In this document: positions 10,463 through 49,891 of the stretch, in pieces
How positions within the stretch are numbered: position 1 is the stretch's first letter
Layout: the number at the start of each line of letters is the position of its first letter
Virus genome (UHGV): UHGV-0124283
Source of the DNA: a virus
Reading direction: 5' to 3' (one strand)
Length of the DNA stretch: 64,000 bases
Program-made: the position numbers and the translations under genes
Notes under the pieces: model-generated
What the model saw: the letters and a program-made list of their open reading frames with translations, nothing else
What the model was told of the DNA's origin: nothing
Databases searched by the model: none

Positions 10463-10472
10463 ACCAACGTTT

Positions 10473-10933: not shown

Positions 10934-10944
10934 AACCAACGTTT

Positions 10945-12594: not shown

Positions 12595-12605
12595 CAAGCA
12601 TATCC

Positions 12606-13040: not shown

Positions 13041-13118
13041 GATTTTCCCTAATCAATGTTGTGAAGCCTCATTGTAAGATAAGTAACTTGTCACCCCGCC
13101 CTGCGGACGGGGTGATTG

Positions 13119-19460: not shown

Positions 19461-19541
19461 GATCTTATCGCCTACCGTTTCGGTTTAAGTTTTTCTTCCA
19501 GTTTCTCCAACAGGAAAAACGCATAGGATTCAGTAAGCCTT

Positions 19542-20423: not shown

Positions 20424-20437
20424 CCTTGCTCCTTAAT

Positions 20438-21049: not shown

Positions 21050-21059
21050 ATCAGCCCCC

Positions 21060-21650
<591 letters not shown>

Positions 21651-21779
21651 TTACCCGATTCTACGAGTTGTCATTTGTTACCGGTCAGTCTACACATTTC
21701 AGATGCTGCGTTAAAAAACCCAAGTACTTCAAGTAGCACATCGTCATCAACACCCAGCCCCAAGATACGGTGATAAAAT

Positions 21780-22814
21780 TCAAGCCTTAAGAGGCTTTGT
21801 GTATGTTCGTGTAATCCATCCAGTAATAAACTCGTCCCCTGATTTAACCTGCACGAAAAGCCATTGGCGATCTTTTTTATCTAAAACAGCCACTATAGTA
21901 TTTTTGCCAATGCATTCAATCACCTCACTATTTATAGAAGGACTGACGTGTAATCTTACGTTCTCACCAGTTATAAAACGAAAACCATTGAGATCTTCCC
22001 AACTAATTTCTTTGTTTTCTTTAATTAATTGTTGTTTTGATATTGGTTTATCCTCAAACAGAGATATAAAATATGATTCTGCCTTGTGTATTCCCAGCAA
22101 GGTTTTCTCTTTTCCGTAATCAATAAAAGCACCAAACACAACTTGAGAAAATATAACCATTAGTAACCATTGCAGTGGATAAGGAAGCTCTTTAAATGAA
22201 TCAACAAACTTTGAGCTAGGTTTATTTAATCCTTTATTTTGAACATTACTTTTGGTGTGTGATGTTTCAGTAGCACCTTCAGCATAAGCCTGCGCAATAG
22301 ATGAAATCCCCTGCTCTATTATTTGATGTAATGAAGCATTTCTTGTTCTAGCATAGTGATCTAGTACTTTCTTTATGTCTTGGCTTACATCTATTTTATA
22401 ACTTGCACTTTGTTGTAATTCTTTAAGTATCGCTTGCATGTTATTTAAACCAGCTTGCTTATTAAGCACCTCAAGCTGTTTTCGTAATGGCATAGCTATT
22501 TCGGCCTGTTTCCTTAGCATTTGAATATATCTATTTGCATCATGAGGGAAAAGAGCCTGAGTCTGTTTCTGTAAAATCGCGATATGTTCACGATACTTGC
22601 TGCCTATTCCAGCCAAGTTCGGTATACTAGCCAATTGTTTTCGAAGAGAGTTACTAATTACAGCTTGTCTATTCAATCTTGGCATATTTTGAAAAGAATG
22701 TTTTTCTATTCCTAATTGTTTTTGCAAGATCGCTACGTGATCTTTGTATGATGGAATGAGCACTGACTGTTTATACAGCAACTTCAACTCATTAGAATTA
22801 GTAATTTTTGTCAT
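21780..22814 (-). CDS. AT-rich accessory protein: N-terminal helical repeats, one TM helix, C-terminal SH3b-like domain
   Basis: 344 aa; three ~30-aa repeats with ILQKQ / LRKQL cores; hydrophobic LQWLLMVIFSQVVFGAFIDYG; C-terminal ...EFITGWITRTYTKPL; strongly AT-rich codons. Confidence 0.5.
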   Translation of the reverse strand: MTKITNSNELKLLYKQSVLIPSYKDHVAILQKQLGIEKHSFQNMPRLNRQAVISNSLRKQLASIPNLAGIGSKYREHIAILQKQTQALFPHDANRYIQMLRKQAEIAMPLRKQLEVLNKQAGLNNMQAILKELQQSASYKIDVSQDIKKVLDHYARTRNASLHQIIEQGISSIAQAYAEGATETSHTKSNVQNKGLNKPSSKFVDSFKELPYPLQWLLMVIFSQVVFGAFIDYGKEKTLLGIHKAESYFISLFEDKPISKQQLIKENKEISWEDLNGFRFITGENVRLHVSPSINSEVIECIGKNTIVAVLDKKDRQWLFVQVKSGDEFITGWITRTYTKPLKA

Positions 22815-22888
22815 ATTATTCCATTTCTATAATAGAATATTACGCAACCAATGTTTTATTGATTGCGTTAATCTTTAACACAGAAAGA

Positions 22889-23365
22889 TCATTTGCCTCG
22901 TTTAATACATCCATCCATTTTGGCTTGTTGATACAACTTACTTAGCCCAGAAAGAGGGAATGTAGCAATTTTTTCATTATCAACATAAGCATCAATCATA
23001 TTAGCATTTGAATCTGCTGCATCTTGCCAAAAGGCATACCACCAAGAATCTCCAACCATTGATCCAAGATTGCTAAAAGGATATTGATCACCATCTATAG
23101 TTAATACTATTTTATTCTTGTCAGCATTATACTCTTTTTTATTATTCGACGAACTTAGCAACAAGCCTAAACTACCTGCACTATCTGGTGAACCATACAT
23201 GAATCCCATATCACATAAAAAACTTATCTTATCACCATTATGATTATGGATTGTATATTCTCTCCCCCCTCTCTCTTCAATTACATTCCATTGTAGAGGA
23301 TCAATTTTTGCAAATGTTCCTGCTGAAACTAACGATACAAATAATAAAAACCATCTCATATTCAT
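22889..23365 (-). CDS. secreted/periplasmic protein
   Basis: 158 aa; signal peptide MNMRWFLLFVSLVSAGTFA; two Cys; AT-rich. Confidence 0.5.
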   Translation of the reverse strand: MNMRWFLLFVSLVSAGTFAKIDPLQWNVIEERGGREYTIHNHNGDKISFLCDMGFMYGSPDSAGSLGLLLSSSNNKKEYNADKNKIVLTIDGDQYPFSNLGSMVGDSWWYAFWQDAADSNANMIDAYVDNEKIATFPLSGLSKLYQQAKMDGCIKRGK

Positions 23366-23387
23366 TCTTTTCGCTTCTTATCTGTAA

Positions 23388-23738
23388 TTATTCTGCAATA
23401 TCATTTGCCCATTGCACGGCAGCAAAATGAGTACCCAAACCACTCAGGAAAGCAATTACCCCCAAAACAATACTTGCTGCTGTTGATTCAAACAAAGTAC
23501 CAATACTATAGCCAATAGCTCCCCATACTAAGCTAAATACAATCATCAATGGTATTGCTAGAAATTTTATTCTTAAACTAAAAATCAGTCCAAGAAAAGA
23601 ACCGCCAAAGGCCCACCATGATTTAGACATTAAACCTATCAGTATTGACAGAATTCCTATTTCAATAAAGAGAATATTAGATTGCTCTTCATTGAATTTC
23701 GCATTTGTTACACCTTTACGAACATGTTCAGATGACAT
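23388..23738 (-). CDS. small polytopic inner-membrane protein
   Basis: 116 aa with three to four hydrophobic helices; AGGAG RBS 9 nt upstream; first gene of minus-strand operon. Confidence 0.5.
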   Translation of the reverse strand: MSSEHVRKGVTNAKFNEEQSNILFIEIGILSILIGLMSKSWWAFGGSFLGLIFSLRIKFLAIPLMIVFSLVWGAIGYSIGTLFESTAASIVLGVIAFLSGLGTHFAAVQWANDIAE

Positions 23739-23787
23739 GATTAACTATCTCCTGCCACAGATAAAACGCCTTAAAATAACATTTTGT

Positions 23788-23827
23788 AGCATAAAGTTTC
23801 ACCATGCAATGGTCAAAATCTTTGACC
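23788..23827 (-). promoter_or_regulatory. sigma70-like promoter for the AT-rich operon with inverted repeat over the -35
   Basis: Minus strand TTGACC-N17-TATGCT (plus coords 23811-23816 and 23788-23793); inverted repeat GGTCAAA-atc-TTTGACC at 23811-23827. Confidence 0.4.
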
Positions 23828-23884
23828 CATATCAATTAAACTCATACATTTTAGTTACCAGAGAAATAATTTACATGGTTGCAA

Positions 23885-23901
23885 GTTGCTCTAATTATTT
23901 T
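23885..23901 (+). promoter_or_regulatory. C1-operator-like site (immI Op51 position)
   Basis: GTTGCTCTAATTATTTT versus consensus ATTGCTCTAATAAATTT. Confidence 0.45.
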
Positions 23902-24099
23902 ATTTTTTTAGCTTCATATGCTACATTAACTTGCTTGCGTGCTAATGCATTTTCGGTTTATCCTAAACAGGCATCTTAGTAACACGGATGCCGGGATTGG
24001 AACCCCGGATAATGCAAAAGGCGACATAGACGCCAAAAGCGTCTTTTTTTGTGTCATGCCATCGCACAACCATACGTAGCACATAGCTCCGAGATCAAT

Positions 24100-24175
24100 G
24101 GTAGTGCTGGCTGGGCTGCCGAAAGGCAGGCCGGTTCCCTTTTGCGCCGGTAGTTCCAACCCAGTCAGTGCTACC
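24100..24175 (+). ncRNA. c4: structured RNA upstream of icd-ant; candidate c4-type antisense repressor RNA or its precursor
   Basis: 16-bp helix (24100-24115 with 24160-24175) containing three G-U pairs that pair only in the plus-strand transcript; internal hairpin ctgcc-gaaag-gcagg. Confidence 0.35.
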
Positions 24176-24235
24176 GCCATTGAGATTGGAACCTCACGCG
24201 GTAGCTCCTTAAATTAGCAAAAGGAGGCTGCCATT

Positions 24236-24457
24236 GTGGCTACTATCCCTACCCCTACTCATCCTGAATTTATCTGGCGCTTTTACTCCTGCCAAAAACA
24301 CCACTATCACTTCGTTATCGCAGCAACAGAAGACGAAGCACGCTCTCAATTGCCTGATGGCCCCTGCATTTTTACTGCCCGTTTTTCAACTAACTCGCGC
24401 AATTCACTTAGTTACTGGAGCCTCCCCTTCTCTGCCGACGTTCAGGGGGGTTTATGA
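24236..24457 (+). CDS. icd: Icd-like small protein (cell division inhibitor of immI region)
   Basis: 73 aa; GTG start 8 nt after AAGGAGG; stop overlaps ant start. Confidence 0.55.
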   Translation: MATIPTPTHPEFIWRFYSCQKHHYHFVIAATEDEARSQLPDGPCIFTARFSTNSRNSLSYWSLPFSADVQGGL

Positions 24458-25863
24458 AAACACCTCTCGTCACCCGTAATGAAATAGCCGAAGCGATCGC
24501 CTTGCATACTGCCTGTATGCCGACACGGGAGATCCCCGGCGCAATTGCTAACTATTTCATGATAACCAGACGTTTTTATACCCGAACAGATAAGGCTGTG
24601 ATCAACAGGCTACTGATAGCCGAGATCAGGGATTATTTGATTGAACAAGGACGTCTACGTTACGCAACAGTGGCAGCAGAAATGAGAAAGGAGGCACATA
24701 GAATGACCGGTAATAATTTAAATGTTGAAAAAACAGCACCTGTTGCTTCAGCTACGCCATCACCAGCTGTGAATGTTATCTCCAACACTGGAGACACAAT
24801 CGACAGCCAGACACTGTTAAAGATGGTCAATGAAGCGCGTAAGTTATGTGGGGAACCAGAGGTTCGGAACAACAAATTCATCGAAAAAATACTCGACGAA
24901 TTAGAAGGTGAGGACGGTTACACAAAAAGTGCAACCGTGCCGCCAGGTGGCGGTACGCCTATGGTTGTCATAACCATGACCTACAAACAAGCCCTGCGAG
25001 TTGCCGCGCGCGAGTCAAAAGCGGTCCGCCGTTCGCTACATACCATGATTCAGGCATTGGAACCTATAAATGTTGAAAATCATCCTGATGAAATTCCCGT
25101 TCTGGAATGGCAGGGAGTACGCGTCGTGACAACCGAGACTCTTGCTAGAGGGTATGGCACTACACCTACTCGTATTCAGCAGAACTACAATCGCAATGAA
25201 GAACGATTTGTAGAGGGTAAACACTTCTTTAAAATCAAAGGAGATGAGATAAAAAGTTTGCGACTATCTTTTAGCGAGTTGCAAATTTCCCCCAAGACCA
25301 GATCCTTAATACTCTGGACCGAACGCGGAGCGGCACGCATGTCTAAGATCGTAGACACAGAGCAAGCGTGGGCATTCTTTGAAAAACTGGAAGACAGCTA
25401 CTTCCGGCAAAAAGAACAGCAACCGGTCGCAATCCCCCAGACGCTTCCCGAAGCTCTGCGCCTGGCTGCCGAGCTGGCTGAACAAAAGCAGCTACTGGAA
25501 CAGAAAACCCACCAGCTAAATCAACAGCTGGTGGCCGCAGCCCCTAAAGTCGATTTTGCCGACCGGGTATCAGCGGCTAATGGAATCCTGATCGGGAACT
25601 TTGCAAAGGTCGTTGGACTTAAGCAAAACGCCCTTTTCTCATGGTTGCGCCAGAACGGCATTCTCATGGCTTTTGGTGCGCGCAAAAACGTACCGCGCCA
25701 GCAGTACATTAACGCCGGGTATTTCACGGTGAAAGAAGTGGTGCTGGATGATGAAAATGGCTACCAGATACGGCTGACGCCCCAATTAACGGGTAAAGGC
25801 CAGCAGTGGTTAACTCGCAAGCTACTTGATGCTGGTTTGTTAAAACCAGTAGCAATAGGTTAA
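24454..25863 (+). CDS. ant: antirepressor (ORF6N/Bro-N-like and KilA-C domains)
   Basis: 469 aa; C-terminal ...AAPKVDFADRVSAANGILIGNFAKVVGL...LTGKGQQWLTRKLLDAGLL antirepressor signature. Confidence 0.8.
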   Translation: MKTPLVTRNEIAEAIALHTACMPTREIPGAIANYFMITRRFYTRTDKAVINRLLIAEIRDYLIEQGRLRYATVAAEMRKEAHRMTGNNLNVEKTAPVASATPSPAVNVISNTGDTIDSQTLLKMVNEARKLCGEPEVRNNKFIEKILDELEGEDGYTKSATVPPGGGTPMVVITMTYKQALRVAARESKAVRRSLHTMIQALEPINVENHPDEIPVLEWQGVRVVTTETLARGYGTTPTRIQQNYNRNEERFVEGKHFFKIKGDEIKSLRLSFSELQISPKTRSLILWTERGAARMSKIVDTEQAWAFFEKLEDSYFRQKEQQPVAIPQTLPEALRLAAELAEQKQLLEQKTHQLNQQLVAAAPKVDFADRVSAANGILIGNFAKVVGLKQNALFSWLRQNGILMAFGARKNVPRQQYINAGYFTVKEVVLDDENGYQIRLTPQLTGKGQQWLTRKLLDAGLLKPVAIG

Positions 25864-39603: not shown

Positions 39604-39855
39604 TTAGTTACCGCTGATAGCGCGGTTGTAATCATTAACGTTGCGATTCTTCCTGTTAATCCCCATCAGCATCGTTTCTGTATCGAGGATATACGCTGGC
39701 AGATCATCAAAATATTCACTGCTAAACTCTGGCATCCTGCACATAAATGCACTTTTTGGGGCAGGGTGGTTAACCTTTGTCGGCGTCGGCGTTAAATTCG
39801 CTGATCGACTCCCGGAGCAACCGCTGAGTGTCAGCAGGAATACGCTGGCGAACAT
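39604..39855 (-). CDS. o-spanin-like lipoprotein embedded in upstream gene
   Basis: From ATG 39855: MFASVFLLTLSGCSG with lipobox LSGC; Pro-rich mature region; overlaps 3' end of i-spanin out of frame. Confidence 0.5.
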   Translation of the reverse strand: MFASVFLLTLSGCSGSRSANLTPTPTKVNHPAPKSAFMCRMPEFSSEYFDDLPAYILDTETMLMGINRKNRNVNDYNRAISGN

Positions 39856-40192
39856 TACCCGCCGCAACCAGTTGTTTCTGAACTTCAGCTTTTCGTTCCA
39901 TTTGCCTGTCAGCATATTTGGCTTGTTCTGATTCATTTTTCACTTCCTGGCTGTGAAAATGTTGCTCTGCTTTGTTCATCGTCTCAATGGTCTGGTTAAG
40001 ATCCATTATTGACTTATCACGTTCCTTAACAGCCTGATCAAGACTGCCAATTTTCTCGATGGCTTGCTTTAGCTGATGACGTTCCCATGCAAACCCAGCA
40101 CCAACAAGTGCGCAAATCAGAACAAGAACACCAGTAGCAGCAAGTTTCTCCTTCAAAGACAAAGCTGTTTTTAACGTAGAAAAGAATGACAT
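39770..40192 (-). CDS. i-spanin-like protein (N-terminal TM plus coiled coil)
   Basis: ATG 40192 with AGGAGG RBS; TM GVLVLICALVGAGFAW then helical region. Confidence 0.5.
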   Translation of the reverse strand: MSFFSTLKTALSLKEKLAATGVLVLICALVGAGFAWERHQLKQAIEKIGSLDQAVKERDKSIMDLNQTIETMNKAEQHFHSQEVKNESEQAKYADRQMERKAEVQKQLVAAGNVRQRIPADTQRLLRESISEFNADADKG

Positions 40193-40231
40193 GTCTTCCT
40201 CCTGAAGAAAAATTATCAATGAAGTCCTTTG

Positions 40232-41020
40232 TTACTGTGCCGCTTTGTTTAATTCATCAAGAACAGAATCAGGAACCAAAGCGGCAACTGCGCTGGCTGT
40301 GCTGGCCTTATTTGCTGATGCTTCCGCAAGCGCGGTACCGATAGCATGGTTATAAGCAGTTATGGCTACGTTGGCGCTTTCATTCGCTCGTTCATACTGC
40401 TGTTGTAACGCAGTTGTGGGCGCTGTTGTCTGGTTGAAAACAACCCCAAACTGTTCAGTTGCTACTTTCAGAGATTCAATTTGCTCTTCTGTTAGTGCTG
40501 GTGGGGGAGTGGCAGTGCCGCCGCCTGAACCAGAGCCTGACGAGCTTCCTGAGCCAGTGTTAAGGGTCTGGTTAATCTCCCCCATAGCAGCAACTAAACT
40601 TGATGTATTAAGCGCGTTTACAGCGTCCTCAAGCGATTTAGTAATAGTCACATCACCAATGGCAATAGAGATCGGCAGTTCTGAAACTTCTCGCTCATTA
40701 GCACGGCAGTAAACATCCCAACCAATATCGAGTTGAAGCAGCATTGACAGATCTGCATAACCAGCCAACAGGTCCGCGTGCTTAGTTGCCAGTTCGACAA
40801 TGTTCGTTAAGCCTGTTGTGGTTGTTCTGATCGTTGAAACATAACTGGTAATAGTGTCGGGATAGACAATTGTATCCAAAATTAATCCGATCAATTCTTC
40901 TGCAAGCTGTTTTGCCGTGTTAGCACTGTTTCGTGCCGATGTTATGGCACCAAGTGTTTTCATCCCACCGGCTGCGGCCAATTTTTTATATGCGGATAAC
41001 TGGTAGTCTTTTTCCAGCAT
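40232..41020 (-). CDS. hypothetical protein with Gly/Ser-rich linker
   Basis: ATG 41020 with AGGAG RBS; TGSGSSSGSGSGGGTATPPP linker. Confidence 0.4.
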   Translation of the reverse strand: MLEKDYQLSAYKKLAAAGGMKTLGAITSARNSANTAKQLAEELIGLILDTIVYPDTITSYVSTIRTTTTGLTNIVELATKHADLLAGYADLSMLLQLDIGWDVYCRANEREVSELPISIAIGDVTITKSLEDAVNALNTSSLVAAMGEINQTLNTGSGSSSGSGSGGGTATPPPALTEEQIESLKVATEQFGVVFNQTTAPTTALQQQYERANESANVAITAYNHAIGTALAEASANKASTASAVAALVPDSVLDELNKAAQ

Positions 41021-41028
41021 GATATCTC

Positions 41029-41313
41029 CTAACTTACCTGAACTAGGCCGTCTCCGGACGCTACGGTAGATCCGCATGAAACAGGGTCACCAACGCATAC
41101 GATCCCTTTACCATTGACGGTAAACCATGCCCTGGTTGATATAGCTTGCCCACCGTGCGTACTGTTTCCATCGGTATGCTGTGCATATTGCTTACCATCA
41201 ACTAATACTTCGACTCCGTTGACTTTAAGTAGTGGTTCACTCTCTACAGGAGGCCTGGATGGGAATCCTCCGTGCCCCGAACAAATGCTGTCTTTTGTTG
41301 CAATACTTGCCAC
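41029..41313 (-). CDS. PAAR-like small protein
   Basis: 94 aa; Cys/Gly pattern CSGHGG ... VNGKGIVCVGDPVSCGS. Confidence 0.45.
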   Translation of the reverse strand: MASIATKDSICSGHGGFPSRPPVESEPLLKVNGVEVLVDGKQYAQHTDGNSTHGGQAISTRAWFTVNGKGIVCVGDPVSCGSTVASGDGLVQVS

Positions 41314-41394
41314 GTCATCACCAATTATTTGCTCTGATTTTCGTTATTTTAACTCAGGTTATTTGTGGTCTACATGGAGTTCAACTATTGCAAA

Positions 41395-41411
41395 ATTGCT
41401 CTAATAAATAT
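41395..41411 (+). promoter_or_regulatory. C1 operator upstream of hrdC operon
   Basis: ATTGCTCTAATAAATAT. Confidence 0.6.
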
Positions 41412-41482
41412 TGTTTTTTATGTCGTATTTTCGGTACCATTCAGCCATCGCCCTTCAATGGGCATTTGTTTGGAGTCGTCAG

Positions 41483-41767
41483 ATGCAGATGGAGCTAATA
41501 AGCCGCAAAGAGTTCGATAGCCGTGTAACCAGCGGTGAACTCGACAACTTGCAGGCTATCAAGGTGAAAGAAGGCTTTTGCCTCATTGGGAATCAGAGCG
41601 GAACAAATCGCGTTTTTATGCTTCGCCGTACGGATTTGAAGCCATTTGTCTGGAAGAACGAAATTGGTCCCAGCTCATACGCTCAAACGAGGGGGTGCCA
41701 CAACTTGGCCTTTTTCTACAAAGACGAGCTTTCTGTGGTTGATATTCAAGGGTTACAACATGTTTAA
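41483..41767 (+). CDS. small protein upstream of hrdC
   Basis: ATG 41483 seven nt after GGAG; overlaps hrdC start. Confidence 0.4.
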
Positions 41768-42665
41768 GCACTGGAAAAATATTACTATTTATAAACTTTC
41801 TCGTGAGGCGGATCTGACCGACTTAGAAGATAAAAAGAAAATGATCCTTTTCACGCCATGCGGTAGTCAGGATATGGCCAAGTTCGGTTTTGTATCGCCA
41901 TTTGGTGATAATTCCGAAGTTATCGCTATGCATGGAAATGGTTTTATCCTTGTTGAAGCAAAGCGCGAAACAAAAATTCTTCCCCCGCCGGTTATCCAGC
42001 GAGCTATTCAAGAAAAAATTGAAAAACTTGAGCAAGAACAAGCGCGTAAACTGAAGAAAACAGAGAAGGACTCCCTGAAAGACGAAGTTCTGCATTCTCT
42101 TCTGCCACGGGCTTTTTCAAAGTTTTCTGTTATCCAGGCGATCTACGACGGTTCAACTAAACGTATCTATATCAATGCCAGCGCGCGGCAGGCAGAGGAT
42201 ATGCTCGCGCTTATGCGTAAGTCTCTGGGTTCTCTTCCTGTTGTGCCACTAAGTGTTGAAAATCCCATTGAGTTAACGCTGACCGACTGGGTACGTGATG
42301 CTAGTGCTCCACAGGGATTTCAAATGGGGGATGCGGCAGAACTTAAGGCAGTGCTTGAGGATGGCGGTATCGCCCGAGTGAAAAAGCAGGATTTGGGAAG
42401 CGATGAAATTTCCACACACCTGGAAGCTGGCAAGCTCGTCACTAAGTTGGCACTCGACTGGCAGAACCGCATTAAATTTACACTGGACCATAACTTCAGC
42501 ATTACCAGCGTCAATTTTGCGGATGAATTGCTTGAGCAGAACTCTGATATTGATAGTGAAGATGTTGCGCAGCGACTGGACGCAGATTTCTTCCTATTGA
42601 CCAGTGAAATTTCGTGCCTGGTTGATGCTCTGGTAAATGCCCTTGGTGGAGAGGCTAAGCAGTGA
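41760..42665 (+). CDS. hrdC: RdgC-like recombination-associated protein
   Basis: 302 aa from ATG 41760 ([13 protein letters not shown]...); RdgC family resemblance. Confidence 0.65.
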
Positions 42666-45600
42666 AAGAGCTGTGCTATGGATCTGTTTGCAGTGGAATT
42701 GAAGCCGCGAGTATTGCCTGGGAACCGTTGGGTATGCGTCCGGTTTGGTTTGCTGAAATCGAGCCTTTTCCATCGGCCGTTCTTGCGCTCCGCTGGCCCC
42801 ATGTCGCCAACCTTGGCGACATGACAAAACTTGCCAAAAAAGTCTTGGCTGGGGAAATCGAATCCCCTGACGTGCTCGTCGGGGGAACACCATGTTTTAC
42901 CGCGGGGCATATGGTTCTTTGTAAAAATGGTTATAAACCAATAGAAGATGTTTGCCCTGGCGATTACGTAGTCAGTCATCTCGGGCGGTTACAACAAGTA
43001 AAAAGAGTTGGTTCAAAAATAGCTAATACGGGGTTACTTAATGCCGTTGGGCAGCCTTTAGGTATAAGAACAACCAATGACCATCCCTTCCTGGCTGTTC
43101 GGTGGAAAGCCCAAAACACCCGGAAAAATGGCACATATTTTAAGAGAGAGTTGTTGTCTGAACCGGAATGGCGAGCAGCATGTGATATGCCGGGATATCA
43201 ATGGTGCGCTCTAACTAATTTCAATATTGCATCTCCAGATATTTGTTCTCGGTTCTTGTCTGAAGAACAGGCTATGTATCTTGCGGGCGCTTATGTTGGC
43301 GATGGATATATTAGGAGATGGAGAGGTAAATCTAAGAAGGCGGTTGTTTTTGGCATAAATTGCCAGAAATTGAGAAAGTTTCATTGCCGCATACCAGAAA
43401 ACATATTTTCCGTGGCAAGCGAAATCCGAGGGAGCATCAAAGTAACCTTGAATGATACGTGTTATGCCAATTGGCTTAATGAACATTTTGGCGAGTTAAG
43501 CCATGCTAAGCGTATCCCTGCATGGGTGATGTCGCATCCATTGCGTCATGTGTTTTTACAAGGCTATCTTGATACTGATGGGACACCAAGTGGTAAAGCG
43601 GGATTTAGAATTAATAGTGTTAGTCCTGCGCTTGCTTGGGGCGTTGCGGGGTTGTCACAGACTTGTGGTTATGTTTCTTCGGTCAGCTTTATTGAAGTTG
43701 AGCCCAAAAAAGTGATCGAGGATCGCGTGGTAAATCAACGGAATTATTATCAGGTAACAATCTGCCCGCAGAAATTGTCACGTAAATCAAGATTGGCTCA
43801 TGGAATGCTTTTACGAACAGTCAAAGAGTTTAAATCGGTAGGCCTAGATACTGTATACAACATAGAAGTCGAAGGTGATCATTCCTATATCCTCAATGGT
43901 GCGGTGGTCCATAACTGTCAGGCATTCAGTATCGCGGGATTACGTGGTGGGCTTGATGATGAGCGTGGCGCGCTAACTTTAAAGTATGTGGAGCTTGCAA
44001 ATGCAATTGACGACAAACGGGCTGAGTCATTTCTCAAACCAGCCGTTATTGTCTGGGAAAATGTCCCAGGAGTCTTGTCATCGGCAGATAACGCCTTCGG
44101 ATGTTTCCTTGCCGGATTGGCTGGAGAAGATGCGCCATTTGAACCAGGTGATCGACCTGAATCAGGAAAAAGTAACGCGTTCTGGCGGTGGGATGGCAAA
44201 ACCGGTTGCCATGCTCCAAAGTGGCAGCAGTGTGGTTGTATTTATGGGCCGCAGCGAAAGGTGGCCTGGAGAATCCTTGATGCCCAATACTTCGGAGTGG
44301 CACAACGACGCCGACGCGTGTTTGTTGTCGCAAGTGCTCGAACAGACCTCGATCCCGCAACGGTACTTTTTGAGTTCGAAGGCGTGCGCCGGGATATTGC
44401 GCCGAGCAGAGGCGAGGGGAAGGAAACTACCAGATATACTTCAAACATCGCTATCAGATCTTGCGATGATACAAACATAGTTGCCATGGCACATGGGCAA
44501 GGAGGGGCTGAGATAAAAACCGATAATTCGGCACCAACTTTAACATGTAACCATGAAGCACCAATTGTATTGCTCGGCGACGGTAGAATACGCCGTCTTA
44601 CCCCTGTCGAATGTGAAAGGCTGCAAGGTTTTCCTGATGGGCATACGTTGATCCCTACGGAAAAGCGTAAAAAAGTTTCTTCAGATGAACTGGCATACCT
44701 TCGCAATAACTATCCTGATTTAAGCGAAGAAGAGGCCGCGATGCTTGCAGCTGACGGACCGCGTTACAAAGCGATCGGCAATAGTATGGCAATACCAGTA
44801 ATGCGCTGGATTGGCGATCGGATTACTAAGGCCGTATGTCGGCAGAAAGAAGGAAGTGAAACAAAAGAGCGAAAAGTTAAACCAGCGGCAGAATTCGAAC
44901 GGTCCATATTCAAATGGGCTGGTGGAAAATTTGGTGTTCTGGAACAAATCTTTCGCTATTTGCCAGAAGGGAAGCGCCTGATTGAACCTTTCGTTGGTGG
45001 CGGAGCTGTCTTCATGAATGCCGGATACCAGGAAAATCTGCTAAATGATGTGAATGCTGACCTGATTAACTTTTACAAGACTCTGCAACGCGAGGCGCAT
45101 TCACTTATCACTCTGGCACATCGTTTCTTCCAGGACTACAACACACAGGAAGGATACCTGGCAGTACGGAATGCGTTTAACAAACAAGTCTATGATGATT
45201 TACATCGCGCAGCGGCGTTTTTGTTCCTGAACCGACATTGTTTTAACGGATTGACGCGTTACAACCAGGCCGGTGAGTTCAATGTCGGTTATGGGAAGTA
45301 TAAAACTCCGTATTTCCCATTACAGGAGATGGAAGCCTTCCTCGGTGCGGAAGGGCGGTCTGAGTTTGTATGCGGTGATTTTGCAGCGGTGATTGAAGCT
45401 GCCGGAGAAGGAGATGTCATCTTTTGCGATCCGCCGTATGAACCGCTTCCAAATACAGAGGGATTCACGAACTATTCCGGTCATGACTTTAAGTTTGAAG
45501 AGCAAAAACGCCTGGTGTCTCTGTTGACGGATGCTCATCGTCGAGGTGCAAAGGTTCTCATTACTAACAGTGGCGCGCCAAACATCAGAGAGCTTTATCA

Positions 45601-45703
45601 TGACAGTGGCTTCAGAGTGGAACCTCTTTTTGCCAGACGTTCTGTGTCTTGTAAGGGGGACACTCGAGGTGTAGCTCATGACGTTTTGGGTATATTGCTC
45701 TAA
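42662..45703 (+). CDS. dmt: bifunctional DNA methyltransferase (N-terminal C5-cytosine, C-terminal Dam-like N6-adenine) interrupted by an intein
   Basis: GTG start overlapping hrdC stop; C5 motifs GGTP-[intein]-[22 protein letters not shown]; Dam-like C-terminus with DPPY. Confidence 0.8.
42893..43915 (+). mobile_element. intein (341 aa) with LAGLIDADG homing-endonuclease domain at the PCQ catalytic motif
   Basis: N-terminal Cys ([13 protein letters not shown]), TxxH block (TNDHPF), two LAGLIDADG motifs ([21 protein letters not shown]), C-terminal ...[21 protein letters not shown] then Cys+1; removal restores [12 protein letters not shown]. Confidence 0.75.
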
Positions 45704-45710
45704 TAAATTT
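45694..45710 (+). promoter_or_regulatory. C1 operator overlapping dmt stop codon
   Basis: ATTGCTCTAATAAATTT, exact consensus. Confidence 0.6.
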
Positions 45711-45883
45711 ATTAGTGTAATATCGCCTCGATGAATCGTGATTTATAGAGCGATTTAGCTGTTAGCCGCGACAGGCGCGGCGGTAAGCATGGCTGGGCCT
45801 AGTCCTCCCAGACAAACCACCGAGTTGCCAGGTTGACCATGCGCCTAAGTGGCAACGCCGAAGTGCGTTACGAGCTTCCAGTT

Positions 45884-45910
45884 TGCCCATCTTCGGGTGG
45901 GCGTTTTTTT
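45884..45910 (+). terminator. rho-independent terminator
   Basis: gccca-tcttcgg-gtgggc then GTTTTTTT. Confidence 0.55.
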
Positions 45911-46375
45911 CAGGGTTTTCGTCATGGTTAGCGACTTTGCGGCGGTTTAGAAACTGACCATTAAAGTAAATGCAAACGATGATCTGATGATGGTAGCGGC
46001 CTAAGAAGCCAGATGCCACGGGGTATGAGTCGTCCCCCGTCAAAAAATCGACCGCAGAGTGTCCCCGTCTGTGTATTAGGGAACGGGGAGGCACAACAGG
46101 TAAGGGCGCTGGTGTGATTAACCAGATGAACGAGAAGGGGCCATCTGTTGGTCAGCGTCCTTTCCTGTTGCGTTTTCTTTTCAGCGTAACAGCGGTGCTT
46201 AACAGCACTTTGGGTACAGTTCCACGAATTTACGGGTATATCCCGTCATGCTGAAGGCGCTAATCACGCTGGAAGCCAGGGTTGTGCATCCCCTGTTACC
46301 GAATTGCAGCTAGGGCGAGGTGCGCCGAAAAGCATACGGAGGTGGAAGCCCTCGCCGGAGACGTACCCGGCAAGT

Positions 46376-46451
46376 GATGGTGTAGCTCAGCGGTTAGAGC
46401 GGTTGACTGTTAATCAACGGGTCGATGGTTCAAATCCATTCACCATCGCCA
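46376..46451 (+). tRNA. tRNA-Asn (anticodon GTT)
   Basis: Hand-folded cloverleaf: acceptor gatggtg/caccatc, D arm gctc..gagc, anticodon stem gttga/tcaac with loop CTGTTAA, T loop TTCAAAT, CCA encoded. Confidence 0.85.
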
Positions 46452-46453
46452 AT

Positions 46454-46529
46454 GCCGGTTTAGCTCAGTTGGTAGAGCGCCTGCCTTGTAAGCAGGATGT
46501 CAGCGGTTCGAGTCCGTTAATCGGCACCA
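46454..46529 (+). tRNA. tRNA-Thr (anticodon TGT)
   Basis: Hand-folded: acceptor gccggtt/aatcggc, anticodon stem cctgc/gcagg with loop CTTGTAA, T loop TTCGAGT, CCA encoded. Confidence 0.85.
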
Positions 46530-47335
46530 GCACAACAGGTAAGGGTATTTTGCGACGTCGGAGATCGCCGAGCTTGGCAGAGGGTTCGAATCCCTACGAA
46601 GTACCCTTACCGTTGTGATGAATGCGCAGGCTGATGCGCGAAAGACATTGCAGCTATTGCGGAAAAGAGCTGTTCGGCGGGGCAATTAAACGCCCGTGAG
46701 AGTCTGAAATAACCGCAAGCCGGAGATCAGCACCGGTCATCACAACACAACAGGTAAGGGCATTCTCCCTTATGGAGCTTGGCTTAAATGCATCGAGTGC
46801 TCTTACCGTTGTGATGAAGTGCAGCTCTTTGAAGCAACCAGAAGATAAGCATCTGGCTTCACAACATAAACCGCAGGAACGACCAATAAACGGTAGTCCG
46901 TATGGAGAACACCCCGTTGAGGAAGAGGCCTGGCCGGAACCGTAACCGGCACTACAACGTTGAGAACACTGGCGTAACGGGGTCATATCCCAATCTACGA
47001 ATAAATGTTGCGTTGCAGCGTGACAACCAGTGTTCTCAACATTGTGGTGAATGCACAGGCTGATGTGCCGCAACTACAGTAGTGCGCGCTTTGCGGGGCT
47101 TGCTACAACCCTGTGTCGGAGTTCAGCACCGACCATCACAGTTTGATTCTCTGGCATGAGCATAACGCTGAAATAAGTCCAGTCTGGTGCGGCCCGATCA
47201 CCCGCCGTTAGCTCCACGAAACGGAGCACGTAACAGGTAAGAGCATTCTCCTGTAACGGGTTCATATCCCAATCTACAGGTCCACCAAGAATGCTCTTTC
47301 CGTTGCGGTGAATGCGGCTAAGCGCACGCGGGGAA
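46530..47335 (+). repeat. array of four ~100-110-bp tRNA-like hairpin repeat units
   Basis: Units at ~46530-46640, 46745-46826, 46957-47072, 47228-47333 share ACAACAGGTAAGRGCA...CTTACCGTTG long stem with internal T-arm-like hairpin, followed by GTGATGAATGC-CAGGCTGATG-GC hairpin; no anticodon arm. Confidence 0.45.
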
Positions 47336-47421
47336 ATGGTTATATCAGTCCATTCATTTCTCCTTGTTTCCCCGTCCACGGTGGATAACCAGCCAAAGGA
47401 CACCGGGAGGAACCCGGCACC

Positions 47422-47438
47422 GCAATCTAATAAATATG
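47422..47438 (+). promoter_or_regulatory. degenerate C1-operator-like site upstream of tciA-ban operon
   Basis: GCAATCTAATAAATATG, partial match. Confidence 0.3.
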
Positions 47439-47461
47439 TCACTTTTATTGAGGGATAACCA

Positions 47462-47896
47462 ATGTTCGGTAAATTGTTCGGCAAGAAAGTCGCTTCTGCA
47501 AAAGTAGAGCTGAAAAAAGTTGAGAATCGCGATCTGATGGAGGCCATTATCGGTGGCTGTTTGTTGGTGTCTGCCGCTGATGGTGAAATCGAAAAAGAAG
47601 AAACAGCGAAACTTGATCAGCTTGTCCGCTCTAATCCGCGTCTTAGTCATTTTGGTAACGAAATTACTGCAACAATTACCCGCTTTACCGAGCAACTGGA
47701 AGCTGGCTTCCGTGTTGGTCGCATGAATATCCTTCGCGAAATTGAAGATATCAAAAACGATCCAAAAGAAGCGGAAGAAGTATTCGTTAACATGCTGACA
47801 ATTGCAGAAGCGGACGGTGAAATCGAGCCAGCAGAACACAAAGTACTGGAAGAAGTAGGCCGTCGTTTAGGTCTTCGTGTGGAAGATTATCTGTAA
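47462..47896 (+). CDS. tciA: TerB-like protein
   Basis: 144 aa with duplicated AADGEIE / EADGEIE acidic motifs. Confidence 0.6.
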   Translation: MFGKLFGKKVASAKVELKKVENRDLMEAIIGGCLLVSAADGEIEKEETAKLDQLVRSNPRLSHFGNEITATITRFTEQLEAGFRVGRMNILREIEDIKNDPKEAEEVFVNMLTIAEADGEIEPAEHKVLEEVGRRLGLRVEDYL

Positions 47897-48060
47897 TGGC
47901 AAGCAAGGCACGTATCGCAATCGCCATTGGTTTTCTCTTGCTGTCCGTGCTGGTGGATTTCACCAGCACAATCCTGTCAGTTTTATCGGACGGGGCGTTG
48001 GTGGCAGTAGCTGTAACATTGGTATGGCCGATATTTAAAACAGCTTCGAAGGATCAGTGA
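47896..48060 (+). CDS. small membrane protein
   Basis: 54 aa, ATG overlaps tciA stop; hydrophobic IAIAIGFLLLSVLVDF (below ORF-track cutoff). Confidence 0.35.
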   Translation: MASKARIAIAIGFLLLSVLVDFTSTILSVLSDGALVAVAVTLVWPIFKTASKDQ

Positions 48061-48167
48061 TGGGCTTCTGGGATTTTGCTGACAAGTATCCAATTGTTCT
48101 CATTATTATTGTTGCCATAGTTGTAGGCGGCATTGTTAGCGCCATTGAAGCACTTAGTAAACAGTAA
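48060..48167 (+). CDS. small membrane protein
   Basis: 35 aa MGFWDFADKYPIVLIIIVAIVVGGIVSAIEALSKQ; ATG overlaps previous stop. Confidence 0.35.
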   Translation: MGFWDFADKYPIVLIIIVAIVVGGIVSAIEALSKQ

Positions 48168-48170
48168 TCC

Positions 48171-48246
48171 GGCCCCTTAGCTCAGTGGTTAGAGCTGGCG
48201 ACTCATAATCGCACGGTCACCGGTTCAAGTCCGGTAGGGGCCACCA
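48171..48246 (+). tRNA. tRNA with CAT anticodon (Met or lysidine-type Ile)
   Basis: Hand-folded: acceptor ggcccct/aggggcc, D arm gctc..gagc, anticodon loop CTCATAA, T loop TTCAAGT, CCA encoded. Confidence 0.8.
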
Positions 48247-48526
48247 TATTTGGTTGTAACACGGCGTCTGGCACATGCGTCGTTAGCGGTCTGGTGACGT
48301 TAAAGGGGTAACCTTTCCCCTAGCTCAGGCAACAAACCAGGTAGCCGGAATGTGCAAGCCCCGTTCATAGCGTCGGACTGCGGATTCACCATCTTGGCGA
48401 TTCGGTGTGACAGCCGGGAAGAGTCCGGCGAATTAATCCTGATTTTCTGGTGATGACTCATATCGTTAGGAGTGATTTGAGTATGCCGATTATATCTGAC
48501 ATTCAGCACGCCTGGGTGGAGTGCTA

Positions 48527-49891
48527 ATGTCTGCATCCCCTCTTGAATCCATGCCAAATTCCCTTAGTGCAGAACAAGCTGTACTTGGTGGCTTAATGCT
48601 TGATAACTGCCGCTGGGATGAAGTGGCAGATCGTATAGTTGCTGATGATTTTTATACCAATGCTCATCGTGAAATTTTCAGTGAGATGGAGAGGTTATTA
48701 AGTCATGGCAAACCGATTGATTTGATAACACTTGCTGAAGCACTTGAACAGAACGGTAAATTAGAACGCGCCGGTGGTTTTGCGTACCTTGCGGAGATGT
48801 CAAAGAACACGCCCAGCGCGGCAAATATTTGTGCTTATGCGGATATCGTTCGTGAACGCGCGGTTGTTCGTGAAATGATTTCCGTCGCAAATGAAATAGC
48901 TGAAGCTGGATATGCGCAGGATGGCCGGGGCAGCAATGAATTGCTGGATATGGCCGAGCGCCGCGTTTTTGAAATAGCTGAAAAACGACAAAAGAGCGGT
49001 AGTGGTCCAAAAGATATCGCCAGCATTCTCGATGCAACGGTATCTCGCATAGAAGAGTTGTTTCAGCGACCGCATGATGGTGTAACGGGGCTTGATACCG
49101 GATTTAACGATCTCAATAAGAAGACGGCAGGGCTTCAGTCGTCCGATCTCATCATTGTCGCCGCTCGCCCATCTATGGGGAAGACCACGTTTGCGATGAA
49201 TCTCGTCGAAAATGCCGCAGTTCGTAACGATAAGCCCGTATTGGTTTTTAGCCTTGAGATGCCGAGCCACCAGCTGATGATGCGCTCACTGGCTTCTCTT
49301 GCACGCGTTGATCAGACTCGTATTCGAACAGGGCAACTTAACGACGAGGATTGGGCGCGGGTTTCTGGCGCAATGGGGATTCTGTTGGACAAGCAGAATA
49401 TTTTTATTGATGACTCAAGCGCCCTGACACCTACAGAGCTTCGTTCCCGCGCTCGTCGTGTTTATAAAGAAAATGGTGGTTTGAGCATGATTATGATCGA
49501 CTACCTGCAACTTATGCGCGTCCCCGAGCTGCAAGATAACCGAACGCTGGAAATTGCCGAGATTTCTCGCTCACTGAAGGCTTTGGCGAAGGAATTACAA
49601 GTACCGGTGGTGGCATTGTCACAACTTAATCGATCGCTTGAACAGCGTGCGGACAAACGACCGGTAAATTCAGATTTACGTGAATCAGGAGCAATTGAGC
49701 AGGACGCAGACCTGATCATGTTTCTGTATCGCGACGAAGTTTATCACCCGGATAGCGAAATGAAGGGCATTGCCGAGGTAATTATCGGAAAGCAACGAAA
49801 TGGCCCAATTGGCACGGTGAGATTGGCTTTTAACGGCCAATACTCACGGTTTGATAACTATGCTGGTGCTGACTGGCAAGAGGATTATTAA
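48527..49891 (+). CDS. ban: DnaB-family replicative helicase (P1 Ban-like)
   Basis: ATG 48527 after GGAG; DnaB hallmarks AEQAVLGGLMLDN, Walker A ARPSMGKTTFA, IGKQRNGPIG. Confidence 0.85.
   Translation: MSASPLESMPNSLSAEQAVLGGLMLDNCRWDEVADRIVADDFYTNAHREIFSEMERLLSHGKPIDLITLAEALEQNGKLERAGGFAYLAEMSKNTPSAANICAYADIVRERAVVREMISVANEIAEAGYAQDGRGSNELLDMAERRVFEIAEKRQKSGSGPKDIASILDATVSRIEELFQRPHDGVTGLDTGFNDLNKKTAGLQSSDLIIVAARPSMGKTTFAMNLVENAAVRNDKPVLVFSLEMPSHQLMMRSLASLARVDQTRIRTGQLNDEDWARVSGAMGILLDKQNIFIDDSSALTPTELRSRARRVYKENGGLSMIMIDYLQLMRVPELQDNRTLEIAEISRSLKALAKELQVPVVALSQLNRSLEQRADKRPVNSDLRESGAIEQDADLIMFLYRDEVYHPDSEMKGIAEVIIGKQRNGPIGTVRLAFNGQYSRFDNYAGADWQEDY

What the first reader, a model, noticed from the sequence alone, without database searches (positions are those of the whole stretch)
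42893..43915. Intein with LAGLIDADG homing endonuclease inserted at the catalytic PCQ motif of the phage methyltransferase
The 1013-aa Dmt-like ORF contains a 341-aa insertion beginning with Cys directly after GGTP and ending in HN followed by Cys (...[21 protein letters not shown]|CQAFSIAG). Conceptual excision reconstitutes the canonical C5-methyltransferase motif [14 protein letters not shown]. The insert carries intein blocks ([19 protein letters not shown]) and two LAGLIDADG motifs ([21 protein letters not shown]). Methylation by this anti-restriction enzyme would therefore depend on protein splicing. I am not aware of an intein described at this site in P1-family methyltransferases.
Basis: seen in the sequence. 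Interest (0 to 1): 0.7.

Follow-up and report, generated by a model that had tools for sequence, protein, structure and literature searches.

The report
Homing intein splitting P1-family Dmt methyltransferase
The methyltransferase gene of this P1-like phage is interrupted, exactly at the catalytic cysteine of its cytosine-methylase half, by a self-splicing protein element (an intein) carrying its own DNA-cutting enzyme. This is a textbook kind of selfish element, common in P1-like plasmids of E. coli, and I found no paper describing it for them.

Summary
Window 42893-43915 is a 341-codon in-frame insert in the 1013-aa dmt ORF (42662-45703). It is absent from P7 Dam (672 aa) and reference P1 Dmt (754 aa), and removing it restores GGTP|CQAFSIAG.

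The insert carries the intein hallmarks:
- Cys1, TNDH, a C-terminal HN, and Cys at +1.
- Two LAGLIDADG motifs, each with its catalytic Asp.
- Hint_2, LAGLIDADG_3 and TIGR01443 all score above their cut-offs.
- The AlphaFold model (pLDDT 92) matches PI-SceI and the VMA, PI-PfuI and PI-PkoII inteins.

Its population pattern suggests homing:
- About 27% of P1-like plasmids in PLSDB carry it, as do 152 of 5426 complete E. coli genomes.
- It sits in at least three dmt backbones.
- It is 0-1.6% divergent, while the flanks diverge by up to 7.8%.
- The base at -1 is A in all 8 occupied alleles read, and no uninterrupted site with A was found in PLSDB.

It belongs to a large family of inteins at the same motif-IV site of C5-methyltransferases. 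An identical allele is in a laboratory P1vir record (OP279344.1).

Splicing and cleavage are inferred, not shown. Only the C5 activity must depend on splicing. This is a new member of a known kind.

The parts
42662..45703 (+). dmt ORF (1013-aa precursor; GTG start overlapping the hrdC/rdgC stop). It encodes a bifunctional C5-cytosine plus N6-adenine DNA methyltransferase interrupted by an intein.
   Evidence: ORF found. It is 100% identical to the annotated dmt CDS of OP279344.1. Pfam hits to PF00145 and PF02086.
42662..42892 (+). N-extein (77 aa): C5-methyltransferase motif I region through ...VLVGGTP, the first half of motif IV.
   Evidence: Alignment with intein-free P7 Dam and P1 Dmt. PF00145 stretch 8-135 is contiguous after excision.
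42893..43915 (+). Intein (341 aa, class 1, with a nested LAGLIDADG homing endonuclease).
   Evidence: GC content is 43.0%, against 54.5% in the N-extein and 48.7% in the C-extein.
42893..42931 (+). Intein block A ([13 protein letters not shown]). Cys1 is the nucleophile for the N-S acyl shift.
   Evidence: C1, F2, A4 and G5 are invariant in 11 homologous inteins of 24-52% identity. CF... starts 148 of the 150 related inteins listed.
43073..43084 (+). Intein block B, TNDH (T61-x-x-H64).
   Evidence: T61 and H64 are invariant in alignment A2. The motif reads TNDH or TNEH in all 8 P1-family alleles.
43220..43777 (+). LAGLIDADG homing-endonuclease domain (approximate limits, intein aa ~110-295).
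   Evidence: PF14528 covers precursor aa 298-361 at 31.1 bits against a cut-off of 22.5. The AF2 model shows an alpha/beta domain over aa 124-292. Foldseek hits to I-SceI, I-AniI and I-OnuI at E~1e-4.
43280..43309 (+). LAGLIDADG motif 1 ([10 protein letters not shown]). Asp137 is the putative catalytic residue.
   Evidence: D137 is nearly invariant and G138 invariant in A2. The motif is identical in all 8 alleles.
43556..43585 (+). LAGLIDADG motif 2 ([10 protein letters not shown]). Asp229 is the putative catalytic residue.
   Evidence: D229 is nearly invariant and G230 invariant in A2. The motif is identical in all 8 alleles.
43853..43915 (+). Intein blocks F and G ([21 protein letters not shown]). 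The penultimate His and terminal Asn carry out succinimide formation.
   Evidence: TIGR01443 intein C-terminal splicing region scores 28.9 bits against a cut-off of 15.6. Matches the Spl DnaX mini-intein C-terminus. N341 is invariant.
43916..43918 (+). +1 Cys codon (TGT). It would serve first as the transesterification nucleophile in splicing, then as the catalytic cysteine of C5-methyltransferase motif IV (PCQ) in the spliced enzyme.
   Evidence: Aligns with the PCQ cysteine of M.HhaI. Cys at +1 in 147 of the 150 related inteins listed.
43916..45703 (+). C-extein: the remainder of the C5-methyltransferase (motifs IV-X and a P7-type variable region) followed by the D12-class Dam domain (about 44903-45682).
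   Evidence: PF00145 and PF02086. TIGR00571 Dam at 249 bits over aa 748-1007.
42878..43934 (+). Disrupted homing site. The uninterrupted site in intein-free alleles reads GTCGGGGGAACACCT|TGTCAGGCATTCAGTATCG. The occupied allele has A instead of T at position -1 (42892).

Best explanation
Window 42893-43915 encodes a canonical class-1 intein with a nested double-motif LAGLIDADG homing endonuclease. It is inserted between Pro77 and the catalytic Cys of motif IV (GGTP|CQAFS) in the C5-cytosine methyltransferase half of a P1-family Dmt.

Inferred mechanism:
1. The 112.8-kDa precursor is translated from the C1-repressed uhr-hrdC-dmt operon.
2. The intein excises itself. Cys1 makes the N-S acyl shift, the +1 Cys attacks in the transesterification, Asn341 cyclises, and an S-N shift follows.
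3. This yields the 74.5-kDa Dmt, with PCQ restored, and a free 38.3-kDa endonuclease.
4. The endonuclease cuts the uninterrupted dmt site of intein-free P1-like genomes in the same cell. Repair from the intein-bearing copy then copies the intein in, which is homing.

C5 methylation requires splicing. The C-terminal Dam domain probably does not.

Shown here: the anatomy, the fold, the clean presence/absence polymorphism, and a population pattern consistent with homing. Inferred: actual splicing, endonuclease activity and target.
For: Anatomy:
- Clean 341-aa indel against P7 Dam and P1 Dmt.
- Cys1, T61xxH64, H340-N341 and Cys+1 are present, along with both LAGLIDADG Asp residues. All are conserved in 8 P1-family alleles and in homologues down to 24-30% identity.

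Profiles, each above its curated cut-off:
- LAGLIDADG_3: 31.1 bits against 22.5.
- Hint_2: 28.6 bits against 28.4.
- TIGR01443: 28.9 bits against 15.6.

Structure:
- AF2 model with pLDDT 92.2 and pTM 0.89.
- Best Foldseek hits are PI-SceI (E 9e-18), TliVMA, PhoVMA, PI-PfuI and PI-PkoII. Free-standing LAGLIDADG enzymes follow.

Extein repair:
- PF00145 rises from 107 to 128 bits after excision, with one contiguous stretch 8-135.
- The +1 Cys aligns with the PCQ cysteine of M.HhaI.

Mobility:
- 133 of about 497 P1-like PLSDB plasmids are occupied and 361 are uninterrupted.
- 152 of 5426 complete E. coli genomes carry it, and all copies are full length and at least 99% identical.
- The intein is found in dmt genes of 3042, 3288 and 3447 nt, which have different variable regions.
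- Pairwise divergence is 0-1.6% in the intein, up to 7.8% in the N-extein and up to 3.5% in the C-extein.
- Position -1 is A in all 8 occupied alleles and T in all 6 empty alleles.
- In PLSDB the empty-site 34-mer with A has 0 matches. The same 34-mer with T has 158 matching records, 156 of them exact.
- Intein GC is 43%, against 49-55% in the flanks.

Family:
- Most of the 150 relatives listed, roughly 140, sit between G-G-(T/S)-P and CQxxSxAG of C5-methyltransferases. 192 cluster representatives score E<1e-30.
- No Rfam intron family matches the region.
Against: - No experiment shows splicing or cleavage.
- Within the P1-family radiation the intein has 15 codons with amino-acid changes against 10 synonymous-only. 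Short-term purifying selection therefore looks weak, and an inactive endonuclease cannot be excluded.
- The low intein diversity and the linked -1 base could also come from one recent origin spread by ordinary homologous recombination, which is frequent among P1-like plasmids.
- C5 activity of P1 Dmt itself is annotated only as 'perhaps'.
- Hint_2 clears its cut-off only marginally, and PF14890 is below cut-off.
Confidence: 0.88

Rival explanations
1. The intein splices, but its endonuclease is dead or dying. The element spreads among P1-like plasmids only by vertical descent and general homologous recombination of dmt segments.
For: - The ratio of codons with amino-acid changes to synonymous-only codons is 15:10 among 8 alleles.
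- All copies are at least 99% alike in E. coli, as expected from a single recent origin.
- dmt is visibly mosaic, with different variable regions and flank haplotypes, so recombination is frequent anyway.
- One relative (P0009) has Asn in place of the second catalytic Asp.
Against: - Both catalytic Asp residues and the conserved Lys206 are intact in every P1-family allele read.
- All 153 E. coli copies are full length, with no truncated versions.
- The intein is consistently less diverged than sequence only tens to hundreds of bases away.
- The -1 base travels with it into different flank haplotypes such as L006 and L008. This fits short co-conversion tracts from double-strand-break repair.
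Confidence: 0.25
2. The insert is a splicing-defective intein relic that simply inactivates the C5 domain. The gene is kept because only the C-terminal Dam domain matters to P1, for example for GATC methylation at pac.
For: - C5 activity of P1 Dmt is only 'perhaps' in the P1 and P7 annotations.
- Reference P1 carries G74W right next to motif IV, which hints that the C5 half can tolerate damage.
- The Dam domain is uninterrupted.
Against: - All splicing residues (C1, TxxH, HN, C+1) are intact in all 8 alleles and across the 11-sequence alignment A2. Cys1, terminal Asn and +1 Cys are also kept in nearly all 150 relatives of roughly 30-57% identity.
- The C5 extein motifs are equally intact, and the extein remains 49-76% identical in distant intein-bearing relatives.
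- No frameshifts or stops appear in 153 E. coli copies, all full length.
Confidence: 0.07
3. The insert is an integral accessory domain of a long Dmt isoform, or an ORF or assembly artefact, and not a mobile element.
For: GenBank and RefSeq annotate the whole 1013-aa product simply as Dmt or 'Dam family methyltransferase', without flagging an intein.
Against: - Exact presence/absence polymorphism at a single peptide bond among genes otherwise 92-100% identical.
- HINT plus LAGLIDADG fold.
- The same sequence appears in over 130 independently assembled plasmids.
Confidence: 0.01

Closest known systems
PI-SceI (S. cerevisiae VMA1 intein) and the archaeal VMA, PI-PfuI and PI-PkoII inteins
   Same: They share the two-part architecture: a HINT splicing domain split by a double-motif LAGLIDADG endonuclease, with Cys1, TxxH, a C-terminal HN and Cys at +1. 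They are the best structural matches, at Foldseek E 9e-18 to 1e-8 and TM 0.51-0.63.
   Different: Sequence identity is only 11-17%. This intein is smaller (341 aa against 360-540 aa) and so may have a reduced DNA-recognition region or none. The host protein is a DNA methyltransferase on a phage-plasmid, not a V-ATPase, polymerase or RNR.
Inteins in actinobacteriophage DNA methylases (Kelley et al. 2016, PMC5050341; Gosselin et al. 2023, PMC9957025; preprint 10.1101/2025.01.02.630785, which lists N-6/N-4 and C-5 methylases as intein hosts)
   Same: These are also LAGLIDADG inteins in orphan phage methylases. [quoted passage not shown]
   Different: The hosts are Actinobacteria phages. The examples described in detail are N6/N4-type methylases. 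I could not check whether the insertion site of the listed C-5 cases is motif IV. None concerns P1, Punavirus or Enterobacteriaceae.
Unnamed intein family at motif IV (GG[TS]P|CQxxSxAG) of bacterial and phage C5-methyltransferases seen in the protein collections
   Same: The insertion point is the same peptide bond, the start (CF[TPV]AG) and end (VHN|C) are the same, and the size is the same at 330-360 aa. Identity to the window intein is 30-57%. One relative (P0027, 1148 aa) is also a C5-Dam fusion.
   Different: The window's allele forms its own cluster at 99% identity or more, confined to P1-like elements of Escherichia, Salmonella and Shigella. The relatives come from other, mostly unannotated genomes and metagenomes. 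Named examples include Mannheimia, Pseudonocardia and Parvibaculum.
Intein-free P7 Dam (AAQ07538, 672 aa) and P1 Dmt (YP_006537, 754 aa)
   Same: The exteins are 92-96% identical, the operon (uhr-hrdC-dmt) and position in the genome are the same, and the spliced product would be 672 aa, like P7 Dam.
   Different: Neither has an insert at GTP|CQ. Reference P1 has W instead of G at residue 74 and a different, 82-aa-longer variable region.

Membership tests
Class 1 intein (HINT domain) | N-terminal Cys/Ser (block A) as first residue of the insert | tested here: met
   Cys1 in CFTAGH. It is invariant in alignment A2 and present in all 150 relatives.
Class 1 intein (HINT domain) | Block B TxxH | tested here: met
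   T61-N-D-H64. T61 and H64 are invariant.
Class 1 intein (HINT domain) | C-terminal His-Asn followed by Cys/Ser/Thr at +1 (blocks F/G) | tested here: met
   ...VVHN|C. TIGR01443 scores 28.9 bits against a cut-off of 15.6.
Class 1 intein (HINT domain) | HINT fold | tested here: met
   AF2 model at pLDDT 92.2. Foldseek top hits are PI-SceI and the VMA inteins, with Prp8 mini-inteins also matched. Hint_2 scores 28.6 bits against 28.4. PF14890 is below its cut-off (18-22 bits against 35.8).
Class 1 intein (HINT domain) | In-frame insertion at a conserved site of a host protein, absent from close orthologues, whose removal restores the host motif | tested here: met
Class 1 intein (HINT domain) | Protein splicing demonstrated | not testable with these tools
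   Needs expression with western blot or mass spectrometry, and C78A/N418A controls.
LAGLIDADG homing endonuclease (monomeric, double motif) | Two LAGLIDADG motifs, each ending in an acidic catalytic residue | tested here: met
   LAGAYVGD137G and LQGYLDTD229G. These residues are conserved in homologues.
LAGLIDADG homing endonuclease (monomeric, double motif) | Profile and fold match | tested here: met
   PF14528 scores 31.1 bits against 22.5. Foldseek hits to I-SceI, I-AniI and I-OnuI at E 1e-4 to 1e-3.
LAGLIDADG homing endonuclease (monomeric, double motif) | Site-specific cleavage of the intein-less allele and super-Mendelian inheritance | not testable with these tools
   Only indirect evidence: patchy distribution, an intein less diverged than its flanks, and a co-conversion-like base at -1.
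C5-cytosine DNA methyltransferase (PF00145 / TIGR00675) | Motif IV PCQ with catalytic Cys, plus motifs I, VI, VIII and X in order | tested here: met
   After excision PF00145 scores 128 bits, with a contiguous stretch 8-135. GGTPCQAFS aligns to GFPCQAFS of M.HhaI. ENV, QRRRR and GNSM are also present.
C5-cytosine DNA methyltransferase (PF00145 / TIGR00675) | 5-methylcytosine formation and target sequence | not testable with these tools
   The P1 and P7 records say only 'perhaps' C5.
D12-class Dam N6-adenine methyltransferase | Profile match above cut-off, with the DPPY motif | tested here: met
   PF02086 at 192 bits. TIGR00571 at 249 bits against a cut-off of 114.85. CDPPY is present.

The most novel reading that the evidence does not exclude
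The intein is more than a passenger. Its endonuclease would give intein-bearing P1-like phage-plasmids an advantage over intein-free relatives that enter the same cell. It would do this by cutting their dmt, giving marker exclusion or gene drive between incompatible phage-plasmids. In addition, the Cys1/Cys+1 pair could make maturation of the C5-methyltransferase conditional, for example on redox state or timing. Cytosine methylation of P1 DNA would then be switched post-translationally while Dam activity stays constitutive.
Probability: 0.15. Interest if true: 0.65.

Novelty: new member of a known kind. Interest (0 to 1): 0.42.

Why it matters
P1 is a classic genetic tool, and E. coli K-12 is generally regarded as intein-free (my own knowledge, not checked here). 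In this analysis a full-size, apparently intact homing intein sits in about a quarter of P1-like phage-plasmids, in 2.8% of complete E. coli genomes, and in one sequenced laboratory P1vir stock. That makes it a genetically tractable natural system for studying intein splicing and homing in E. coli, including homing between co-resident or co-infecting phage-plasmids.

It also matters for annotation. Dmt lengths of 1013, 1095 and 1148 aa are precursors of 672-, 754- and 807-aa enzymes. The motif-IV site of C5-methyltransferases is a recurrent intein target, with well over a hundred 50%-identity clusters. The biology itself is ordinary for inteins, which typically sit at a conserved catalytic site of a nucleic-acid enzyme.

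Tried and rejected
Literature:
They combined intein with P1-like, phage P1, phage-plasmid, plasmid prophage, Dmt, cytosine methyltransferase, Dcm/COG0270 and RCS47, plus one for OP279344.
- None found a description of this intein.
- They did find methylase inteins in actinophages, and the origin of OP279344.1 as a laboratory P1vir stock.

Sequence search of the PDB with the intein gave only weak hits: Spl DnaX block G at E 1.4e-3 and PI-PkoII at E 0.027. The fold search was needed to settle the fold.

An intron explanation is rejected. Rfam found no match in 42400-47000 apart from two tRNAs, and the insert is in frame without stops.

I first assumed the window was OP279344.1 itself. That is wrong. 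Only dmt is 100% identical. The surrounding 9 kb is 99.27% identical, 11906-25000 is 96.8%, and the first ~9 kb is not P1 at all.

The synonymous versus non-synonymous count within the P1-family alleles rests on too few changes (25 codons) to decide whether the endonuclease is under selection.
Full report
**1. Observation**

The window has one long ORF on the + strand, 42662..45703 (GTG start, 1013 aa). Translating 42893-43915 gives 341 codons without a stop, beginning [13 protein letters not shown] and ending ...[21 protein letters not shown]. The next residues are CQAFSIAG. The ORF is 100% identical to the annotated dmt of GenBank OP279344.1, 'Escherichia phage P1 isolate del res del mod'. 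Two papers describe that record as the P1vir stock of one laboratory.

An alignment with P7 Dam (672 aa), reference P1 Dmt (754 aa) and RCS47 Dmt (1095 aa) shows one clean 341-residue gap in P7 and P1. It is bounded by GGTP (WGTP in reference P1) and [11 protein letters not shown]47 carries the same insert.

**2. What it is**

Profile searches of the whole protein give:
- PF00145 (C5 methylase), broken into four stretches.
- PF02086 (D12 Dam), with TIGR00571 Dam at 249 bits.
- LAGLIDADG_3: 31.1 bits against a cut-off of 22.5.
- Hint_2: 28.6 bits against 28.4.
- TIGR01443, the intein C-terminal splicing region: 28.9 bits against 15.6.

An alignment of the insert with ten homologues of 24-52% identity shows which residues are invariant or nearly so. 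These are Cys1, Thr61 and His64 (block B, TNDH), Asp137-Gly138 and Asp229-Gly230 (the ends of the two LAGLIDADG motifs), Lys206, Asp329 (block F), Asn341 and the +1 Cys.

AlphaFold2 run on that alignment gives a confident model, with mean pLDDT 92.2 and pTM 0.89. Its best Foldseek matches in the PDB are the intein-endonucleases PI-SceI (E 9e-18), TliVMA, PhoVMA, PI-PfuI and PI-PkoII. Free-standing LAGLIDADG enzymes (I-SceI, I-AniI, I-OnuI) and mini-inteins follow. No Rfam family, and so no known intron, matches the region.

After conceptual excision the 672-aa product gives a better PF00145 match: 128 bits against 107, with a single stretch 8-135 across motifs I-VI. Its [12 protein letters not shown] aligns with GFPCQAFSISG of M.HhaI. 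The cysteine of PCQ is the catalytic nucleophile of C5-methyltransferases; this is established knowledge, not tested here. The +1 residue of the intein would therefore be both the splicing nucleophile and, afterwards, the methyltransferase nucleophile.

Calculated masses are 112.8 kDa (precursor), 74.5 kDa (spliced) and 38.3 kDa (intein).

**3. Distribution and signs of mobility**

*Occurrence.* The 1023-nt insert is found in 133 PLSDB plasmids. Of these, 128 are at least 99% identical. The hosts are Escherichia, Salmonella and one Shigella, and almost all are non-mobilizable P1-like plasmids. Among sequenced phages it occurs only in OP279344.1, RCS47 and vB_EcoM-Ro157c2YLVW. A synthetic 'empty site' query (231 nt upstream plus 300 nt downstream) hits 497 plasmids. 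In 361 of them the site is uninterrupted, so about 27% are occupied. In 5426 complete E. coli genomes, 152 carry the insert. Every copy is full length and at least 99% identical, with 148 on plasmids and 5 on chromosomes.

*Backbones.* The intein sits in dmt genes of 3042, 3288 and 3447 nt. These correspond to spliced enzymes of 672, 754 and 807 aa with different central variable regions.

*Divergence.* Among eight occupied alleles, pairwise divergence is 0-1.6% in the intein. It reaches 7.8% in the 231-nt N-extein and 3.5% in the first 480 nt of the C-extein.

*The -1 base.* The base immediately 5' of the insert, the third position of the Pro77 codon, is A in all eight occupied alleles and T in all six empty alleles. 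This holds across two different flank haplotypes. In PLSDB the empty-site 34-mer with A has no match, whereas the same 34-mer with T matches 158 records, 156 of them exactly.

*Composition.* Intein GC is 43.0%, against 54.5% and 48.7% for the flanking extein DNA.

Together these results are what homing with short co-conversion tracts predicts. They do not prove endonuclease activity. Within this young radiation, 15 variable codons change the amino acid and 10 do not, which is uninformative to mildly relaxed.

**4. Wider family**

A full HMMER scan of 1.84 billion cluster representatives with the intein alone finds 4453 hits at E<=1e-3 and 192 at E<=1e-30. In most of the 150 best, roughly 140, the intein lies between ...G-G-(T/S)-P and C-Q-x-x-S-x-A-G. 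That is the same peptide bond of motif IV. It usually starts near residue 70-90 of the host protein. Examples with source names include Mannheimia haemolytica, Pseudonocardia (an SPE|CTNHS variant) and Parvibaculum.

One relative (P0027, 1148 aa) is also a C5-Dam fusion: 57% identical in the intein, 61-76% in the C5 extein parts and 49% in the Dam domain. The P1 element is therefore one allele of a large and old intein family specific to this site.

**5. Mechanism**

*Shown.* The anatomy, the fold, the presence/absence polymorphism and the restoration of the host motif.

*Inferred from established intein chemistry.*
1. N-S acyl shift at Cys1.
2. Transesterification to the +1 Cys.
3. Cyclisation of Asn341, assisted by His340.
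4. S-N shift giving GGTP-CQAFS.

*Inferred from LAGLIDADG biology and the population data.* The free intein cuts the uninterrupted site (GTCGGGGGAACACCT|TGTCAGGCATTCAGTATCG or close variants) in an intein-free P1-like genome in the same cell, and is then copied in by repair.

*Consequence.* The C5 half cannot be active before splicing, because 341 residues separate Pro77 from the catalytic Cys. The Dam half is a separate C-terminal domain and need not depend on splicing. The role of Dmt's C5 activity, 'anti-restriction', is not established; the P1 and P7 records say 'perhaps'.

**6. Comparison with what is known**

The architecture is that of PI-SceI-type inteins. Inteins in phage DNA methylases are documented for actinobacteriophages:
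- N6/N4 methylases (PMC5050341).
- A methylase family with an intein and other inserts (PMC9957025).
- A 2025 preprint that lists both N-6/N-4 and C-5 methylases as intein hosts.

I found no paper that mentions an intein in P1, P7, RCS47, Punavirus or phage-plasmid dmt. GenBank and RefSeq annotate the precursor simply as Dmt or 'Dam family methyltransferase'. Some fragments are named 'Hint domain-containing protein'. The library searched holds only open-access papers and bioRxiv preprints, so an earlier mention elsewhere cannot be excluded.

**7. Verdict**

It is a new member of a known kind, not a new kind of system.

Its value is practical. It offers a native, apparently intact homing intein in the E. 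coli mobilome and in a laboratory P1vir stock, and it corrects the annotation of Dmt lengths. Interest is moderate, at 0.42.

The most novel reading not excluded is that the endonuclease acts in competition between P1-like phage-plasmids, or that splicing conditionally gates cytosine methylation. I give this a probability of about 0.15.

Noticed in passing
window 1-12700: The first ~9 kb is a P2-like late gene block, not P1: small terminase 50-793, gpL 833-1402, gpR 3348-3815, gpS 3808-4260, baseplate J 6550-7458, gpI 7451-8062 and tail-fibre N-terminus plus collar 8059-9387. P1-like homology starts at about 8.9-11.9 kb, in or next to the tail-fibre genes. No complete E. coli genome or plasmid in the collections spans the joint. 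It is either a P2/P1 hybrid formed through tail-fibre homology or an assembly chimera.
   Followed up: partly
window 4341-5441 (-): A 366-aa minus-strand ORF with a RelA/SpoT nucleotidyltransferase domain (PF04607, E 1.9e-21) lies between the P2-like gpS and baseplate genes. It may be a cargo or defence gene of the small alarmone synthetase type.
   Followed up: no
OP279344.1 (L001 3001-6042), compared with window 39662-48703: A laboratory P1vir stock (OP279344.1, used in pAgo studies) carries a dmt 100% identical to the window's, intein included. The reference P1 sequences NC_005856/AF234172 lack the intein and have a different variable region. Over the surrounding 9 kb the window is only 99.27% identical to OP279344.1, and it is 96.8% identical over 11906-25000, so the window is a different P1-like element.
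   Followed up: partly
L004 (NC_005856.1) dmt codon 74; window 42881-42883: Reference P1 Dmt has Trp instead of the otherwise invariant Gly at residue 74 (VWGTPCQ against VGGTPCQ), three residues before the catalytic Cys and 13 nt from the intein insertion point. This could impair the C5 activity, alter the homing site, or both.
   Followed up: no
dmt variable region, window ~44400-44600; loci L002, L005, L011: P1-family dmt genes come with at least three or four different central (target-recognition-like) segments. Intein-free lengths are 672, 754 and 807 aa, and one is over 843 aa, cut at the locus end. The intein is combined with at least three of them.
   Followed up: partly
proteins P0011 (Mannheimia haemolytica, 439 aa) and P0024 (Rodentibacter pneumotropicus, 401 aa): P0011 has a full-length related intein, but its C-extein ends 20 residues after the +1 Cys (CQSDKGG...*). 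The record lists 578 contigs for this protein cluster. P0024 starts with the last ~50 residues of a related intein fused to an intact C-extein. These may be degenerating or mis-called stages of the same intein family.
   Followed up: no
window 44673-44690: The sequence that the P7 record annotates as a predicted late promoter inside dam (LPdam2, aagtttcttcagatgaac) is conserved here, downstream of the intein. If it is real, a late transcript could start inside dmt.
   Followed up: no
window 46376-46448 and 46454-46526 (+): Two tRNA genes lie downstream of dmt, at the position where the P1 records annotate tRNA-Asn and tRNA-Thr. They are ordinary for P1.
   Followed up: yes
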